From Escherichia phage AV115, in the sequence record OR352945.1: 64,000 bases of DNA. One strand, 5' to 3'. The notes beneath the pieces are model-generated. The model was given only the letters and a program-made list of their open reading frames with translations, made no database searches and was not told the origin of the DNA. A program made the position numbers and the translations under genes. Each line of letters starts with the position of its first letter. Within the stretch, counting starts at the first letter, position 1. Below are positions 1-36,286 of the stretch, one piece after another.

Positions 1-2317
<2,317 letters not shown>

Positions 2318-2344: not shown

Positions 2345-4327
2345 ATGGCACTTCTCTCTCCGGGCGTTGAGCTCAAAGAAACTACCGTACAGAGTACTGT
2401 AGTTAATAACTCCACTGGTACTGCTGCCCTGGCTGGAAAATTCCAATGGGGACCTGCATTCCAGATTAAACAAATCACTGATGAAGTTGCATTGGTTGAT
2501 ATGTTTGGTACTCCTAATACGGATACAGCAGATTATTTCATGTCTGCTATGAACTTCCTTCAATATGGTAATGACCTTCGTGTCGTACGCGCAGTTGATC
2601 GTGATACTGCTAAGAACTCATCTCCTGTGGCAGGCAATATTGAATTCACAATCTCTGCTACTGGTAGTAACTATGCGGTTGGTGATAAAATTATCGTTAA
2701 GTATTTGACCGAAACTGTTGAAGCAGATGGTTATGTCACTTCAGTTGATGTCGATGGTAAAATTCTTAACATTTATATCCCAACCGGTAAAATTATTGCT
2801 CGTGCAAAAGAAATTAATGAATATCCGGCATTGGGTTCTAACTGGACCGCCGAAGTTGCCAGTTCTTCTTCTGGACTTTCTGGCGTTATTACAATTGGTT
2901 CTATCGTAACTGATTCGGGTATTCTGTTAACTGAAGTTGAAACTTCTGAAGAAGCTATTACTTCTCTAACTTTCCAAGAATCTATTAAAAAATATGGTGT
3001 CCCAGGCGTAGTTGCTCTTTATCCTGGTGAACTTGGCGACCAGCTCGAAATTGAAATCGTATCTAAAGCAGACTATGACAAAGGTGCTTCAGCCCAGTTA
3101 AAAATTTATCCTGATGGTGGTACTCGTGCATCTACTGCTAAAGCAATCTTTGGGTATGGCCCACAAACTGATGACCAATATGCAATTATCGTTCGTCGTA
3201 ACGATGCTGTAGTTCAGAGCGTAGTTCTTTCTACTAAACGCGGTGAACGAGATATTTATGGTAGTAATATCTTTATTGATGATTTCTTTGCTAAAGGCGC
3301 AAGCAATTATATTTTCGCTACTGCACAAGGTTGGCCAAAAGGTTTCTCTGGCGTAATCAAACTGGGTGGCGGCTTATCATCTAATGAAACTGTTGACGCT
3401 GGTGATTTAATGGAAGCTTGGGATTTGTTTGCTGACCGCGAATCTGTTAATGCGCAGTTGTTTATTGCCGGTTCTTGTGCAGGTGAATCTTTAGAAGTTG
3501 CTTCTACAGTTCAGAAACATGTTGTAGCAATTGGTGATTCTCGCCAAGATTGCTTGGTTCTTTGCTCACCGCCACGTGCAACTATAGTCGGTATTCCTGT
3601 TAATCGTGCAGTTGATAATCTGGTTGATTGGCGTACTGCGTCAGGAACTTACACTGATAATAACTTTAATGTAAGTTCTACTTATGCCGCTATTGACGGT
3701 AACTATAAATATCAATATGACAAATATAATGATGTGAATCGTTGGGTTCCATTAGCTGCTGATATTGCTGGTCTTTGTGCTCGCACAGACAATATTTCTC
3801 AGCCTTGGATGTCTCCTGCCGGTTATAACCGTGGACAAATTCTTAATGTTATTAAGCTTGCAATTGAAACTCGCCAAGCGCAGCGTGATCGTTTGTACCA
3901 GGAAGCTATTAACCCTGTTACTGGTACCGGTGGTGATGGGTATGTTCTGTACGGTGATAAAACTGCCACTTCTGTTCCTTCACCATTTGACCGTATTAAC
4001 GTTCGTCGTTTGTTCAATATGGTTAAAACGAACATTGGTTCAGCATCTAAATATCGCCTGTTTGAATTGAACAACGCATTTACCCGTTCTTCTTTCCGTA
4101 CAGAGACTTCTCAATATCTACAGGGTATTAAAGCTCTCGGTGGTGTATATAACTTTAAAGTTGTTTGTGATACTACCAATAACACACCAGCAGTTATCGA
4201 CCGTAATGAGTTTGTAGCTACTTTCTACTTACAACCTGCAAGATCGATAAATTATATTACGTTGAACTTTGTAGCAACAGCAACGGGTGCCGATTTCGAC
4301 GAACTAATTGGTGCTGTAGGTGCCTAA
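2345..4327 (+). CDS. 18: contractile tail sheath protein
   Basis: 660 aa, T4 gp18 length and gene order; SD AGAGGA upstream; late promoter at 2310. Confidence 0.95.
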   Translation: MALLSPGVELKETTVQSTVVNNSTGTAALAGKFQWGPAFQIKQITDEVALVDMFGTPNTDTADYFMSAMNFLQYGNDLRVVRAVDRDTAKNSSPVAGNIEFTISATGSNYAVGDKIIVKYLTETVEADGYVTSVDVDGKILNIYIPTGKIIARAKEINEYPALGSNWTAEVASSSSGLSGVITIGSIVTDSGILLTEVETSEEAITSLTFQESIKKYGVPGVVALYPGELGDQLEIEIVSKADYDKGASAQLKIYPDGGTRASTAKAIFGYGPQTDDQYAIIVRRNDAVVQSVVLSTKRGERDIYGSNIFIDDFFAKGASNYIFATAQGWPKGFSGVIKLGGGLSSNETVDAGDLMEAWDLFADRESVNAQLFIAGSCAGESLEVASTVQKHVVAIGDSRQDCLVLCSPPRATIVGIPVNRAVDNLVDWRTASGTYTDNNFNVSSTYAAIDGNYKYQYDKYNDVNRWVPLAADIAGLCARTDNISQPWMSPAGYNRGQILNVIKLAIETRQAQRDRLYQEAINPVTGTGGDGYVLYGDKTATSVPSPFDRINVRRLFNMVKTNIGSASKYRLFELNNAFTRSSFRTETSQYLQGIKALGGVYNFKVVCDTTNNTPAVIDRNEFVATFYLQPARSINYITLNFVATATGADFDELIGAVGA

Positions 4328-32813: not shown

Positions 32814-33179
32814 TTAGATATCGAATTCGTTAAGAACTACATCAAAGATTGCTTCGAGATGTTCAGGTTTAGCTCGGTTACTCAGGATATGACGAATCCA
32901 AGTTTTAACCAGAAGTTTACGATTAACACCGTTCCAGCAAGGATGAGTACCTAAATCACGTTGACGGAAATCATCATCTAATGCAATTTTGAAGTTGGAA
33001 CCTTCCATCATGATTGAAACAGTAATGCCATTTTCAAATCGCATATAAACGTAATTAGGAGTCATATACTGCTCAATTTCACATACTGAACCATTTTTAT
33101 GCTTCCACAAGCAAACCATGTCGATAGAACCAGCGATACCGTTAGAAACATATTTACGTTCGAAGTTGATGTAGTTCAT
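32814..33179 (-). CDS. hypothetical early protein
   Basis: 121 aa; early promoter and hairpin directly upstream. Confidence 0.5.
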   Translation of the reverse strand: MNYINFERKYVSNGIAGSIDMVCLWKHKNGSVCEIEQYMTPNYVYMRFENGITVSIMMEGSNFKIALDDDFRQRDLGTHPCWNGVNRKLLVKTWIRHILSNRAKPEHLEAIFDVVLNEFDI

Positions 33180-33220
33180 TTTATTCTCCGGTTGTTTTAT
33201 TGATTAGGTGGTACAAGTCT

Positions 33221-33249
33221 ATAGTAACACATCCTACAGGAGAGTAAAC
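33221..33249 (-). promoter_or_regulatory. early sigma70-type promoter
   Basis: GTTTAC-N17-TACTATAGAC on minus strand, preceded by hairpin 33286-33303. Confidence 0.6.
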
Positions 33250-33285
33250 ATCTTTTTAAACTTTTTCTGCCCTAAACGCACAAAA

Positions 33286-33303
33286 GGGAGACCGAAGTCT
33301 CCC
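33286..33303 (-). terminator. stem-loop GGGAGACCGAAGTCTCCC (copy 1)
   Basis: Perfect 7-bp stem, CGAA loop, T-run on minus strand; precedes early promoter. Confidence 0.55.
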
Positions 33304-33308
33304 TAAAA

Positions 33309-33488
33309 TTATGCAACAACCTTTCCAAAACGAGAAGCATCATCTCGAAGAACTGCACGTGCTCTGCGCATGATCTTCTCAACGGTTTGATTAATACGAG
33401 AGTTCGACCCACGCTTGTATCCAGCGCGTTTAGAGGTACCATCAACTTTCTTTTCAACTGCTTTCTTTGCTTTAGCTTGTTTTGCCAT
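33309..33488 (-). CDS. small basic protein (59 aa)
   Basis: ORF not in track (59 aa): MAKQAKAKKAVEKK...; followed by hairpin terminator at 33286-33303. Confidence 0.4.
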   Translation of the reverse strand: MAKQAKAKKAVEKKVDGTSKRAGYKRGSNSRINQTVEKIMRRARAVLRDDASRFGKVVA

Positions 33489-33651
33489 TATAAATTCTCT
33501 TTAAATGAAAATGCAGGACTTATTGACATTGCCTGCTCAAGCCCTCAATGGGAACATAGGTTTTGGATATTTAACGACAGGATAACCATAAACCCGTCAT
33601 CATACCTACCATGACTTACACAGCTAACCTTTTGCTGACGCATGATAGCAA

Positions 33652-33900
33652 TTATTTCAAAGTAATAACAAAATGACGTACTGCTTTACGAGCTGCAGAA
33701 GCCAAAGGCTTAGCATATTTCAGTTCATCTTTTGCTTCCAGTTCAGAAGCCAAAGCTGCCTGGACCGGGTTCAGATGTTTGAAATAACGAAGGATTTCAA
33801 GAGCTTCGGCTTCAACATCAATAGATGCGCCATAGTTTTCATGACCATTATTCCATGCGTTTCGTTGCAGTTCAAGAGCGTGTTGTAATTGTTTAATCAT
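33652..33900 (-). CDS. rIII: rIII lysis-inhibition accessory protein
   Basis: 82 aa, T4 rIII length, position between 30.x cluster and gene 31. Confidence 0.7.
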   Translation of the reverse strand: MIKQLQHALELQRNAWNNGHENYGASIDVEAEALEILRYFKHLNPVQAALASELEAKDELKYAKPLASAARKAVRHFVITLK

Positions 33901-34024: not shown

Positions 34025-34357
34025 TCACTTATAAAGACACGGAATAGCTTTATAGTGGCATGTTACGAATTTCTGTTTAATTTCTTTAGGTTGTTTAAGT
34101 CCCAAAGCCACAAATGGATGTGGAACATTTCGAATTTGTCCAACTGGTAGTGGAGTCAAATCACCGACTTCAACAAAACCTTCAGGAACATCAGGACCTA
34201 CAGAATGAACTACACATAGTTCAGGAACTTCACCTTGAACACGTTTACCAATCACAAGTCCTGATTCGGTAACTTCTTCATCACCTGCTTGAGCGGGTTC
34301 AGAAACCAGAATGACATATTCACCAACAGCACGAATTGGGAGTTGTACTTCAGACAT
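34025..34357 (-). CDS. 31: co-chaperonin (GroES analogue)
   Basis: 110 aa; near-identical to T4 gp31. Confidence 0.92.
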
Positions 34358-34414: not shown

Positions 34415-34723
34415 TTACATAAGAAGCAAACGTTCTACCGGAGTACCATCAACCGAAATTACTTTATCAAGGCGGAAAGAACGCCACTGACCTAACTCGG
34501 TATCGAATGCTCGAACTGATTCACGAGGTTCAGAACGAACTTCTGTTGATGGGTTACTATTTTCATATTTGACTTCAAGTTCGTCGCGGGAAGCAAACAT
34601 CGTACGAACATCACCGTTAGCCTTTTCAAATACAACACAATGAACGCCTACAGACAGAATAGTTTTAATACGTTCACGAAGAACCATAGTTTCTTGTTCA
34701 GTTAAAATCATATTATTCACCAC
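34415..34723 (-). CDS. hypothetical protein
   Basis: 102 aa ORF between cd and gene 31. Confidence 0.45.
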   Translation of the reverse strand: MVNNMILTEQETMVLRERIKTILSVGVHCVVFEKANGDVRTMFASRDELEVKYENSNPSTEVRSEPRESVRAFDTELGQWRSFRLDKVISVDGTPVERLLLM

Positions 34724-35294
34724 AAAAGTTTCGAATTTGTTCCCAATTCAGAGAACGAAGATTATTACGAGAGTACTGAATTACTTCAATACCGGCTTTT
34801 TTTAGAATGTCTGCCCAATTTTCAGGAGATCGGTCATATAATTCTGCATATACAACCTTTTTAATACCTGACTGTGTAATAGCTTTAGTGCAATCAGGAC
34901 ATGGAGAAAGCGTCGTATACAACGTAGCACCTTCAATAGAATTACCTTTACGAGCTGCAAACAAAATTGCATTCAATTCCGCATGGATTTCGTTATTAGC
35001 AGACCATGCACTATGAGCGGCCCGATGTTCTTTAGCCAAAACAAAATTATCCACCCGTCCAAATGCTGTAGTGCCTTCTTTATGCCCAGCAACGATGACC
35101 GGGCTTGGTTTATTCTTCAACCAACCATTTTCGGATGCATGTTCGCAACAGTTTGTACCACCTGAAGGAGAGCCATTATAACCTGTAGAAATAATGCGTC
35201 CATCTTTTTCAATGACGGCGCCAACTTTCCATGAACAACATTTTGATTCTTGAGAAATCAGATAAGCAATCTGAAGATATGTGCTAGCTTTCAT
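34713..35294 (-). CDS. cd: dCMP deaminase
   Basis: 193 aa; HAELNAI and PCPDC zinc-binding motifs. Confidence 0.95.
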   Translation of the reverse strand: MKASTYLQIAYLISQESKCCSWKVGAVIEKDGRIISTGYNGSPSGGTNCCEHASENGWLKNKPSPVIVAGHKEGTTAFGRVDNFVLAKEHRAAHSAWSANNEIHAELNAILFAARKGNSIEGATLYTTLSPCPDCTKAITQSGIKKVVYAELYDRSPENWADILKKAGIEVIQYSRNNLRSLNWEQIRNFCGE

Positions 35295-36286
35295 TATTGA
35301 ACCTTATTAATATAAGTTAACAGCTCTTTAGTTTGTTCCCAACTGATGCACGCATCGGTAATGGAAACGCCATAGGACATATTATCAGAAATTTTTTGAT
35401 TTCCTTCATGTAGGAATGATTCTATCATAATTCCTTTGACCAAATCATTAGCTGCTAAATTTTTACCAATACCAATTTGATTGCTATAATGCCCATCAGC
35501 GTTTGCATGGCTACAGTCAACCATTACATAATGATTCAGACCTACTGCCCTTGCTTTGTTAGAAGCTTCTTGAATATCAGAAGAATGATAGTTCGGGCCG
35601 TTGGTCCCGCCACGCAATACGATATGCGTATTCTGATTACCTTCAGCTTCAACAATGCCTACAGTACCATCGACGTCCATACCCATATACCGATGAGGCC
35701 AGGCGGCACTATACATCGCGTCTGTAGCTACTTTAATAGAACCATTGGTTGCGTTCTTGAAGCCTACGCACATCGGTAGACCTGAAGCAATTTCACGATG
35801 TGTCTGACTTTCAGTCGTACGGGCGCCAATAGCAACCCATGAGAAAATACCAGAAAGATACTTAATCGTGAATGGGTCTAATACTTCAGTTGCTAATGGA
35901 AGTCCCATACGTAGAAGTTTACGACACAATGTTCGTGCAACTATAAGACCGTGGTTCATATCAAAACTTCCGTCAAGATATGGATCATTTACAAGACCTT
36001 TCCAACCTACGGTAGTTCGAGGCTTTTCAAAATAAACGCGCATCACTAACAGAACATTAGGAAGACGAGTTTGAAGTTCAGCCAGACGTTTGCCGTATTC
36101 AACAGCAGCAATAGGGTCATGAATTGAACAAGGACCTACAACAATAAGTTTGCGTGGGTCTTCACCGTTCATAATCGAATTAACTTGTTCGCGATGAGAA
36201 GCCACTTGTGATGCGTAAGCTTCCGACAAAGGAATAATCTCAGCCAGTTCTTTTGGAGAAATAAGTTTTCCGACGACAGGTAACAT
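35294..36286 (-). CDS. 3-deoxy-D-arabino-heptulosonate 7-phosphate (DAHP) synthase, class I
   Basis: 330 aa; full-length similarity to AroG/AroF (GPCSIHD, VYFEKPRTTVGWKGL, IGARTTESQ, KPGxxD motifs); stop overlaps cd start. Confidence 0.88.
   Translation of the reverse strand: MLPVVGKLISPKELAEIIPLSEAYASQVASHREQVNSIMNGEDPRKLIVVGPCSIHDPIAAVEYGKRLAELQTRLPNVLLVMRVYFEKPRTTVGWKGLVNDPYLDGSFDMNHGLIVARTLCRKLLRMGLPLATEVLDPFTIKYLSGIFSWVAIGARTTESQTHREIASGLPMCVGFKNATNGSIKVATDAMYSAAWPHRYMGMDVDGTVGIVEAEGNQNTHIVLRGGTNGPNYHSSDIQEASNKARAVGLNHYVMVDCSHANADGHYSNQIGIGKNLAANDLVKGIMIESFLHEGNQKISDNMSYGVSITDACISWEQTKELLTYINKVQ

What the first reader, a model, noticed from the sequence alone, without database searches (positions are those of the whole stretch)
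33309..33488. Unlisted 59-aa highly basic ORF with its own terminator
The frame translates to MAKQAKAKKAVEKKVDGTSKRAGYKRGSNSRINQTVEKIMRRARAVLRDDASRFGKVVA, which is about 30% K/R. A perfect hairpin terminator follows it (33286-33303). The ORF track reports a different, overlapping frame (33272..33457) that looks spurious. The product is a candidate small nucleic-acid-binding protein.
Basis: seen in the sequence. Interest (0 to 1): 0.4.

Follow-up and report, generated by a model that had tools for sequence, protein, structure and literature searches.

The report
Known phage gene 30.9, rediscovered
The 59-codon basic ORF is a real gene, but it is the already-annotated gene 30.9 of RB69/T4-type coliphages, a dispensable early gene of still unknown function that ends in a conserved terminator hairpin, so the finding is correct but ordinary.

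Summary
ORF 33309..33488 (-) encodes the stated 59-aa peptide (30.5% K+R, pI 11.4). A perfect 7-bp/UUCG hairpin at 33286-33303 starts 5 nt after its stop codon. The window is a Mosigvirus (RB69-like, T4-type) coliphage. The peptide is 100% identical to deposited RB69 Gp30.9 (363 contigs) and 93% identical to T4 gp30.9 (phrog_1427, E=2e-31). It sits in the conserved order rIII - 30.9 - 30.7. It was "unlisted" only because the ORF list cuts off at 60 aa. The 59-aa frame is the coding one: pN/pS is 0.41 against 1.1-1.2 in the other frames, and codon usage is +0.46 against -0.41 bits/codon. The rival frame also acquires stop codons in distant relatives. The terminator is conserved with compensatory stem changes and is followed by an early promoter (GTTTAC-17-TACTAT), which is the published "PeSL" cassette. 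In T4 the 30.9 transcript is early, the protein is undetected by MS, and knock-down has no fitness effect. Nucleic-acid binding remains an untested guess; no homology or fold match supports it. In passing I found a covarying stem-loop plus invariant GUUAAAUAUCCAAAAC motif in the 30.9 leader (33560-33598), function unknown.

The parts
33309..33488 (-). CDS, orthologue of RB69/T4 gene 30.9 (59 aa plus TAA stop). It has a disordered Lys/Ala-rich N-terminal tail (1-19), a near-invariant core SKRAGYKRGSNxRI (19-32) and an Arg-rich amphipathic helix (30-54).
   Evidence: Translation. phrog_1427 E=2.4e-31. Exact identity to RB69 Gp30.9. 93% identity to T4 gp30.9. pN/pS 0.41 in this frame only. Codon-usage score +0.46 bits/codon. 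Conserved columns. AF2 model.
33496..33501 (-). Weak Shine-Dalgarno-like AAGAGA, with the GAG 8 nt upstream of the ATG. An in-frame TAA 5 codons upstream of the ATG (4 sense codons between) excludes any N-terminal extension.
   Evidence: Sequence. The MAKQ start is conserved in all homologues while the upstream in-frame sequence diverges.
33274..33304 (-). Intrinsic-terminator-type hairpin (A)GGGAGAC-UUCG-GUCUCCC(U) followed by an interrupted U-tract UUUUGUGCGUUU. The stem starts 5 nt after the stop codon.
   Evidence: Fold -20.3 kcal/mol, z -3.3. 14 distinct homologous versions all have perfect 8-10 bp stems plus a T-run. RNAalifold finds 4 of 7 pairs with compensatory double changes. Annotated as a terminator in MK327933.
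33221..33249 (-). T4-early-type promoter GTTTAC-N17-TACTAT for the next gene (30.7 homologue, 32814..33179). Together with the hairpin it forms a PeSL (promoter-early stem-loop) cassette.
   Evidence: Sequence. The same arrangement follows 30.9 in most homologues. Published PeSL consensus TTTACW-N17-TAYWAT: PMC4122927.
33560..33598 (-). Conserved non-coding stem-loop in the 30.9 leader (rIII 3' region): GACGGG / 11-nt loop / CCUGUC plus an invariant tail GUUAAAUAUCCAAAAC, 72 nt upstream of the ATG. Its function is unknown, and assigning it to the 30.9 unit is an inference.
   Evidence: 98% of cells paired versus 84+-3% in shuffles (0/500); 3 of 6 pairs have changes on both sides; slid controls collapse. 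Single copy in the window. Found only upstream of 30.9 in T4-like contigs. No Rfam family.

Best explanation
The feature is the RB69-type orthologue of bacteriophage T4 gene 30.9, a genuine small protein-coding gene in the variable 'gene 30 - rIII' region of a Mosigvirus genome. SHOWN: the 59-aa frame is under purifying selection. It has the phage's codon usage and a conserved MAKQ start. It belongs to phrog_1427 and is flanked by rIII upstream and a 30.7 homologue downstream. Its transcript unit is closed by a conserved UUCG-tetraloop hairpin with a U-tract. That hairpin, with the following GTTTAC-17-TACTAT early promoter, forms a PeSL cassette, the kind of element at which T4-type phages gain and lose genes; gene 30.8 is missing here relative to T4. 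FROM PUBLISHED T4 DATA: the 30.9 transcript is of the early class, the protein has not been seen by tryptic MS, and knock-down gives no fitness defect in the laboratory, so this is an accessory early gene. INFERRED (about 0.4): the product is a disordered Lys/Ala-rich tail, an invariant SKRAGYKRxSN motif and an Arg-rich amphipathic helix (net charge +13). It most likely acts by binding a polyanion in the freshly infected cell, either RNA/ribosome or DNA, as a host-takeover or counter-defence accessory factor rather than as an enzyme or virion part.
For: Identity: megablast 99.3% to Escherichia phage AV118 (Mosigvirus), where the same 59-aa CDS is annotated. The exact peptide is deposited as RB69 Gp30.9, UniRef Q8SBJ9, on 363 contigs. 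T4 gene 30.9 (NP_049823) lies in the same place and is 93% identical. phrog_1427 E=2.4e-31. tblastn finds matches in 1006 phage records. Neighbours are rIII (phrog_1457), 30.7 (phrog_1582) and gp31 (phrog_931). Coding frame: third-position changes are about 2x those at positions 1 and 2. pN/pS is 0.41 versus 1.14 and 1.21. Codon score is +0.46 versus -0.41 bits/codon, against reference values of 0.37+-0.15 in frame and -0.32+-0.13 off frame. The rival frame has stops in L015, L016 and L023-L029 and no family hit. Terminator/PeSL. Expression and dispensability in T4: transcript 'early', protein NA (PMC9697503 Table S2); CRISPRi-ART log2FC 0.04, 'Not Fit' (PMC11879866 supplement). Shape: AF2 shows residues 1-19 disordered, helix 20-27 and helix 30-54. 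Distant members keep the SKRAGYKR core and helix, and some add further KA-rich tails.
Against: No evidence of any kind contradicts the identity. For the functional part there is no homology or fold link to any nucleic-acid-binding family. The model is only moderately confident (mean pLDDT 66). The protein has never been detected by proteomics in T4, although only one tryptic peptide of >=7 aa exists. The U-tract of this particular terminator is interrupted after 4 U, and the consensus scanner did not call it, so termination may be partial. Its own promoter was not identified.
Confidence: 0.9

Rival explanations
1. The real gene is the overlapping 61-aa TTG ORF (33272..33457, -) shown by the ORF track, and the 59-aa frame is an accident.
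For: It is 2 codons longer, passes the 60-aa threshold, and stays open in the closest relatives.
Against: It has no PHROG or Pfam hit. pN/pS is 1.14 in that frame. Its codon score of -0.41 bits/codon is typical of off-frame sequence. It has internal stops in L015, L016 and L023-L029. It would run through the terminator hairpin. Every annotated relative calls the 59-aa frame.
Confidence: 0.01
2. gp30.9 does not bind nucleic acid. Instead it docks through its basic tail and helix onto an acidic host protein, for example a defence-system component, ribosomal protein S1, or another factor of the translation or transcription apparatus, acting as an inhibitor or anti-defence peptide.
For: It is an early, dispensable, small gene in a region that holds counter-defence genes; 30.3/AdfN is anti-DarTG according to the HIDEN-SEQ preprint. 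The neighbour RIII binds ribosomal protein S1 (PMC9409239). The near-invariant SKRAGYKRxSN motif looks like a specific interaction motif rather than generic charge. The family moves between unrelated phages, for example 7-11 of Grimontviridae, where it lies in a region of small genes that includes an Srd homologue about 1.3 kb downstream.
Against: No partner is known and no anti-defence annotation exists. Net charge +13 with KA-rich tails, extended further in some homologues, is more typical of nucleic-acid binders. Nothing here discriminates between the two ideas.
Confidence: 0.3
3. The hairpin is not primarily a transcription terminator but an mRNA 3'-end stabiliser or a recombination hotspot (the stem-loop half of a PeSL), and transcription largely reads through into 30.7.
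For: The U-tract is interrupted (UUUUGUGCGUUU) and the scanner did not call it. UUCG-tetraloop hairpins are exceptionally stable RNA structures (own knowledge: Tuerk et al. 1988, T4 intercistronic hairpins). PeSLs are proposed to mediate modular shuffling (PMC4122927). Gene 30.8 is absent exactly at this junction.
Against: In nearly all homologues the stem is followed by a long clean T-run (TTTTTTATTTT and similar), as in canonical intrinsic terminators. The roles are not mutually exclusive.
Confidence: 0.25

Closest known systems
Gp30.9 of phage RB69 (UniRef Q8SBJ9; AAP76119) and gp30.9 of phage T4 (NP_049823, gene T4p212; UniProt P17310)
   Same: It is 100% identical to the RB69 protein and 93% to T4's. 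Gene order (rIII - 30.9 - 30.x), length, MAKQ start and terminator hairpin after the stop are all the same.
   Different: Nothing of substance differs. The window lacks gene 30.8, which T4 has between 30.9 and 30.7, and its terminator stem is GGGAGAC rather than T4's GGACTCC.
PeSL (promoter-early stem-loop) composite terminator/promoter cassettes of T4-type phages (Arbiol et al. 2010; Comeau et al. 2014, PMC4122927)
   Same: A stem-loop is followed by an early promoter fitting TTTACW-N17-TAYWAT, in a hyperplastic region, at a junction where relatives differ by a gene indel.
   Different: The spacing is 17 if the -35 is read as GTTTAC and 16 if read as TTTACT. I did not check whether this particular site was catalogued in those papers.
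CUUCGG-tetraloop hairpins of T4 intercistronic regions and Rho-independent terminators (own knowledge: Tuerk et al. 1988)
   Same: It has a C(UUCG)G-closed tetraloop on a GC-rich 7-8 bp stem, directly after a stop codon and followed by U residues.
   Different: The U-tract here is interrupted after four U, which is weaker than in the T4 orthologous site.
Small basic Lys/Ala-rich nucleic-acid-binding tails (histone H1-like or ribosomal-protein-like extensions)
   Same: It shares the composition (AKxAKAKKA repeats, net +13, predicted disorder). Some distant homologues carry additional KA-rich C-terminal tails.
   Different: No sequence or structural homology was detected to any such family. This is a resemblance of composition only.

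Membership tests
T4-type gp30.9 family (phrog_1427) | Significant match to the family profile over its full length | tested here: met
   phrog_1427 E=2.4e-31, residues 1-57. T4 30.9 is assigned to the same PHROG in the PMC11879866 supplement.
T4-type gp30.9 family (phrog_1427) | Identity or near-identity to named members | tested here: met
   Exact sequence equals RB69 Gp30.9. 93% identical to T4 gp30.9.
T4-type gp30.9 family (phrog_1427) | Conserved position immediately downstream of rIII, same strand | tested here: met
   rIII homologue at 33652..33900 (-). An 81-84-aa rIII-like ORF precedes 30.9 in all 26 T4-like loci examined.
T4-type gp30.9 family (phrog_1427) | Conserved core SKRAGYKRxSNxR[IV][ND] followed by a basic helix | tested here: met
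   Alignment A1 and the distant members.
Intrinsic (Rho-independent) terminator | GC-rich stem-loop directly downstream of the stop codon | tested here: met
   7-8 bp stem, 5 G-C pairs, UUCG loop, -20.3 kcal/mol, z -3.3.
Intrinsic (Rho-independent) terminator | Uninterrupted U-tract immediately 3' of the stem | tested here: inconclusive
   The tail is UUUUGUGCGUUU and the consensus scan did not call it. Orthologous sites have 5-8 consecutive T.
Intrinsic (Rho-independent) terminator | Structure conserved by compensatory change | tested here: met
   14 distinct perfect stems. 4 of 7 pairs have double changes.
Intrinsic (Rho-independent) terminator | RNA 3' ends generated at the site | not testable with these tools
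   This needs Term-seq or in vitro transcription.
PeSL cassette | Stem-loop followed within a few tens of nt by an early promoter TTTACW-N17-TAYWAT | tested here: met
   GTTTAC (33249-33244), 17 nt, TACTAT (33226-33221).
PeSL cassette | Lies at a gene-content breakpoint between related phages | tested here: met
   Gene 30.8 is present in T4 and Mizar but absent here and in AV118.
Known nucleic-acid-binding protein families | Sequence or fold homology to a characterised DNA/RNA-binding domain | tested here: not met
   Pfam best E=0.14. NCBIfam has nothing significant. PDB profile search best E=0.25. Foldseek PDB gives 0 matches. Only 17 representatives, 15 of them small uncharacterised proteins, one a spurious 617-aa repeat protein and one carrying a Pfam PF00122 hit (P0035), match among 1.84 billion.
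Known nucleic-acid-binding protein families | Demonstrated binding to DNA or RNA | not testable with these tools
   This needs EMSA or filter binding with the peptide.

The most novel reading that the evidence does not exclude
gp30.9 is a phage-encoded RNA- or ribosome-binding peptide that works in the same pathway as its invariable upstream neighbour RIII, which binds ribosomal protein S1. The covarying stem-loop plus GUUAAAUAUCCAAAAC motif in its own leader (33560-33598) would then be a cis-acting operator or processing site through which expression of 30.9 is controlled. That would be a small autoregulated translation-takeover module conserved in T-even phages.
Probability: 0.06. Interest if true: 0.55.

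Novelty: already known. Interest (0 to 1): 0.1.

Why it matters
As a finding it matters little, because the gene, its frame and even its terminator are already in public annotation. The residual value is twofold. First, gp30.9 is one of the many conserved but uncharacterised early genes of T-even phages. It is present in about 1000 sequenced phages, including therapy candidates, has a strikingly invariant 14-residue core, and has no known function, so it is a cheap target for peptide-level biochemistry. Second, the leader carries a previously unannotated structured motif with compensatory changes; it has no Rfam family. The case also shows that a 60-aa ORF threshold hides real T4-type genes while displaying spurious overlapping frames.

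Tried and rejected
(1) Rival 61-aa frame and the antisense 75-aa ORF (33387..33614 +): no family hits, and for the 61-aa frame wrong codon usage, neutral pN/pS and stops in relatives. Rejected. (2) Remote homology for function: Pfam, NCBIfam on all 39 family members, PDB profile search (only an insignificant SlmA helix, E=0.25), an exhaustive HMM search of 1.84 billion representatives and Foldseek against PDB. Nothing informative came back; a 617-aa hit (P0068) is a spurious repeat protein. (3) The 'glycogen branching enzyme GH-13' label on this peptide in several GenBank records is a mis-annotation, since a 59-aa peptide has no such domain. (4) Rfam for the hairpin and leader: only sub-threshold similarity of the terminator hairpin to sRNA terminators. 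(5) Proximal leader hairpins (CCCAUUGAGGG at 33544-33554; GCAGG...CCUGC around 33510-33535): these are no better than dinucleotide shuffles, the whole-leader fold gives z=-1.2, RNAalifold finds no compensatory pairs, and my drawn stem has only one. Not claimed. (6) A late promoter reading of GTTAAATA in the leader does not match TATAAATA (own knowledge of the consensus). A sigma-70 or early promoter for 30.9 itself could not be identified convincingly. (7) Small conserved upstream ORF ('YPVVKYPK'): the motif is read in different frames in different phages because of indels, so conservation is at nucleotide level. (8) Literature: only one mention of 'gp30.9' in the searchable library. Driukas & Nivinskas 2003 (Biologija), Truncaite et al. 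2006 (Virology) and Miller et al. 2003 are not held.

Full report
WHAT IS THERE. The minus strand of window 33309..33488 is an ATG-to-TAA ORF. It has 10 K and 8 R in 59 residues (30.5%), pI 11.35 and net charge +13. Five nucleotides after the TAA stop, the minus strand reads GGGAGAC-UUCG-GUCUCCC (+ strand 33286-33303). This is a perfect 7-bp stem, or 8 bp with the flanking A-U, on a UUCG tetraloop, followed by UUUUGUGCGUUU. The fold energy is -20.3 kcal/mol, z = -3.3 against dinucleotide shuffles. With the default 60-aa threshold, the ORF tool lists only the overlapping 61-aa TTG ORF 33272..33457 (-) and an antisense 75-aa ORF. The 59-aa ORF appears as soon as the threshold is lowered. 'Unlisted' therefore means 'one codon too short', nothing more.

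WHERE THE WINDOW COMES FROM. An 801-bp query around the ORF matches 752 phage records. The best is Escherichia phage AV118 (Mosigvirus, the RB69 group of T4-type Straboviridae) at 99.3% identity. In AV118, G2285 and Mizar the same 59-aa CDS is annotated. Mizar's annotators link it to T4 gp30.9, and G2285's annotators even mark the hairpin as a 'putative transcriptional terminator'. In T4 itself (NC_000866) gene 30.9 (NP_049823, 58 aa) lies between rIII and 30.8, and its product is 93% identical to the window peptide. An exact-sequence look-up shows that the window peptide is already deposited as 'Gp30.9 protein, n=27, Mosigvirus' (UniRef Q8SBJ9, phage RB69; AAP76119) and has been seen on 363 contigs. 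The neighbours confirm the synteny. 33652..33900 (-) is rIII (phrog_1457, E=4e-43). 32814..33179 (-) is the 30.7 homologue (phrog_1582, E=8e-65). 34025..34357 (-) is gp31 (phrog_931). 34713..35294 (-) is dCMP deaminase. Gene 30.8 of T4 and Mizar is absent here.

WHICH FRAME IS REAL. Four independent tests agree.
- Family: the 59-aa product matches phrog_1427 at E=2.4e-31, while the 61-aa product matches nothing in PHROGs or Pfam.
- Substitution pattern: in a codon alignment of 24 distinct homologous CDSs from public phages and IMG/VR contigs, third positions of the 59-aa frame carry about twice as many differences as first or second positions (4847 versus 2730 and 2240 pairwise differences). 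Pooled pN/pS is 0.41 in this frame and 1.14 and 1.21 in the other two.
- Openness: the rival frame acquires internal stop codons in the more distant relatives (L015, L016, L023-L029), and its TTG start is not conserved. The MAKQ start of the 59-aa frame is present in every homologue even though the in-frame upstream sequence diverges. In the window an in-frame TAA lies five codons upstream of the ATG (four sense codons between), so no longer version is possible.
- Codon usage: trained on 36 long ORFs of the window, the score is +0.46 bits/codon for the 59-aa frame and -0.41 for the 61-aa frame. Reference distributions are 0.37+-0.15 for in-frame and -0.32+-0.13 for off-frame 60-codon windows.

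THE TERMINATOR. In all 14 distinct versions of the downstream sequence, a perfect 8-10-bp GC-rich stem with a 4-5-nt loop starts 3-11 nt after the stop codon and is followed by a T-run. The arms differ between clades: GGGAGAC here, GGACTCC in T4, GGGACTCC, GGGAACC and GGGGCTCC elsewhere. RNAalifold on 12 of them recovers the 7-bp stem, with compensatory double changes in 4 of 7 pairs. In most homologues the T-run is followed by GTTTAC[AT]-N16-18-TAnnnT. In the window this is GTTTAC (33249-33244), 17 nt, TACTAT (33226-33221). This is the composite 'promoter-early stem-loop' (PeSL) described for T4-type phages, with the consensus TTTACW-N17-TAYWAT for the T4/PST group. PeSLs are proposed to mediate gene gain and loss in hyperplastic regions (PMC4122927). 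The missing 30.8 at exactly this junction fits that picture. A caveat applies: the U-tract of this particular copy is interrupted after four U, and the simple scanner did not call it, so termination may be partial. Only 3'-end mapping can tell.

WHAT THE PROTEIN IS LIKE. An alignment of 39 family members shows a variable Lys/Ala-rich N-terminus, a nearly invariant core S19-K-R-A-G-Y-K-R-x-S-N-x-R-I, and a conserved basic helix with R42 and V46 invariant. AlphaFold2 with this alignment predicts residues 1-19 as disordered, a short helix at 20-27 and a long helix at 30-54 (pLDDT 81-89 for the helix, mean 66). It is therefore a tail-plus-helix peptide, not a globular domain. The family is narrow: an exhaustive profile search of 1.84 billion cluster representatives finds 17 at E<=1e-3. 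Most are 46-97-aa proteins keeping the same core, and some have extra KA-rich C-terminal tails. Besides T4-type phages of Escherichia, Klebsiella, Serratia, Erwinia, Citrobacter and others, a member occurs in Salmonella phage 7-11 (Grimontviridae). There it is not next to rIII but among small genes, with an Srd anti-sigma homologue about 1.3 kb downstream. No Pfam, NCBIfam, PDB-sequence or Foldseek match links it to any characterised family.

WHAT IS KNOWN EXPERIMENTALLY (T4 ORTHOLOGUE). In the time-resolved omics study of T4, the 30.9 transcript is classed 'early' and the protein is 'NA', meaning not detected (PMC9697503, Table S2). The non-detection is unsurprising, because trypsin leaves a single peptide of >=7 residues. 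In the CRISPRi-ART screen, knock-down of 30.9 gave log2FC 0.04 (p=0.26, 'Not Fit'), and the gene is listed as phrog_1427, function unknown (PMC11879866 supplements). [quoted passage not shown] The same paper states that rIII is served by early, middle and late promoters (PMC9409239). I found no paper assigning a function to gp30.9.

MOST LIKELY MECHANISM. Shown: this is a real, conserved, early-transcribed, laboratory-dispensable accessory gene with its own terminator/PeSL. Inferred: a +13 peptide with a disordered KA-rich tail and an Arg-rich amphipathic helix most plausibly binds a polyanion, meaning RNA/ribosome or DNA, soon after infection. I put this at about 0.4. The main rival, at about 0.3, is docking onto an acidic host protein as an inhibitor or counter-defence factor. 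That rival is suggested by the invariant motif, by the counter-defence gene 30.3/adfN in the same region, by the S1-binding neighbour RIII, and by the gene's mobility between phage families. Nothing available here discriminates between the two.

SIDE OBSERVATION IN THE LEADER. The rIII-30.9 spacer (163 nt here, 120-416 nt in relatives) is modular. One module is well supported: GACGGG (33598-33593) / 11-nt loop / CCUGUC (33581-33576), followed by an invariant GUUAAAUAUCCAAAAC (33575-33560). On 10 distinct versions, 98.2% of cells pair (shuffles 84.1+-3.1, 0/500), and 3 of 6 pairs change on both sides (A-U to U-A, C-G to U-A, A-U to U-A/U-G). The covariation score is 0.259 versus 0.078 (0/500), and all slid controls are <=0.078. 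The sample is small and the structure was hand-drawn, so this is suggestive rather than proven. Indels put the motif in different reading frames in different phages, so it is not a peptide. It is single-copy in the window. In IMG/VR it accompanies the stem only upstream of 30.9 in T4-like contigs. It has no Rfam family. It lacks a U-run, so it is not a terminator, and TTAAATAT does not match the T4 late promoter TATAAATA (own knowledge). By contrast, the hairpins closer to the ATG that first caught my eye are not better than shuffles and show at most one compensatory pair. I do not claim them.

VERDICT. The gene call and the terminator are right. The functional label is an untested guess. The feature is already known and annotated as gene 30.9 of RB69/T4, so novelty is 'already known' and interest is low.

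Noticed in passing
window 33560-33598 (-): Unannotated conserved stem-loop (GACGGG / 11-nt loop / CCUGUC) plus invariant tail GUUAAAUAUCCAAAAC in the rIII-30.9 spacer. It shows compensatory changes in 3 of 6 pairs across 10 distinct T4-like versions, is read in different frames in different phages, and has no Rfam family. Function is unknown; a processing site, an operator or a stabiliser are possibilities.
   Followed up: partly
window 33489-33555 (-): Further hairpins lie between that element and the 30.9 start: CCCAUUGAGGG, then CUUGAG, then GCAGG...CCUGC, then a possible SD-containing mini-hairpin. Relatives carry different stems at the same place. However, shuffles reach the same score about 20% of the time, and only one in-register compensatory pair was found.
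   Followed up: yes
window 33180-33308 (-) compared with T4 L004 2354-2864: Gene 30.8 (phrog_1507), which lies between 30.9 and 30.7 in T4 and phage Mizar, is absent in this window and in AV118. The breakpoint coincides with the terminator/early-promoter (PeSL) cassette.
   Followed up: partly
public records OR352948 (AV118), OR352946 (AV116), PV390659 (vB_EcoM_P8), UniRef entry for Klebsiella phage PMBT63: The 59-68-aa gp30.9 peptide is annotated there as '1,4-alpha-glucan (glycogen) branching enzyme, GH-13-type'. This is a clearly erroneous label that is propagating between phage records.
   Followed up: partly
T4 locus L004 2865-3041 and protein P0005: UniProt's T4 entry ('Uncharacterized 11.1 kDa protein in Gp30-rIII intergenic region', 97 aa) is N-terminally extended relative to RefSeq's 58 aa. 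The extension is not conserved in relatives and is impossible in this window, where an in-frame stop lies 5 codons upstream of the ATG (4 sense codons between).
   Followed up: partly
L004 (T4) about 3150-3260 (-) and L002 (G2285) about 1950-2060 (-): T4 and G2285 carry an extra module of about 100 nt in the rIII-30.9 spacer, with nested inverted repeats (GAGG..CCGU..AACUGUC..AAUGAUU-UGCG-AAUCAUU..GACAGUU..ACGG..CCUC). The whole-leader fold is only marginally better than shuffles (z -1.83). In G2285 part of it is annotated as a 55-aa ORF with no family hit tested.
   Followed up: partly
L030 (Salmonella phage 7-11, HM997019) 1733-2443: A 710-nt unannotated gap lies directly upstream of the 7-11 gp30.9 homologue. 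It contains tRNA-like T-arm motifs (GGTTCGAATCC, GGTTCGACTCC ... GCCCGCTCCA) and a sub-threshold Rfam hit to permuted tmRNA (29.6 bits versus gathering score 47, E 5e-4). ARAGORN calls only the tRNA-Cys downstream. This may be a tmRNA-like or tRNA-like gene.
   Followed up: partly
window 35294-36286 (-): A 330-aa ORF with a full DAHP synthetase I domain (PF00793, E=4e-75) sits immediately upstream of dCMP deaminase, where T4 has cd.1. It is an auxiliary aromatic-amino-acid-pathway gene that is annotated in AV118 and Mizar.
   Followed up: partly
window 33387-33614 (+): A 75-aa TTG ORF antisense to 30.9 is shown by the default ORF list. It has no PHROG hit and is presumably spurious.
   Followed up: partly
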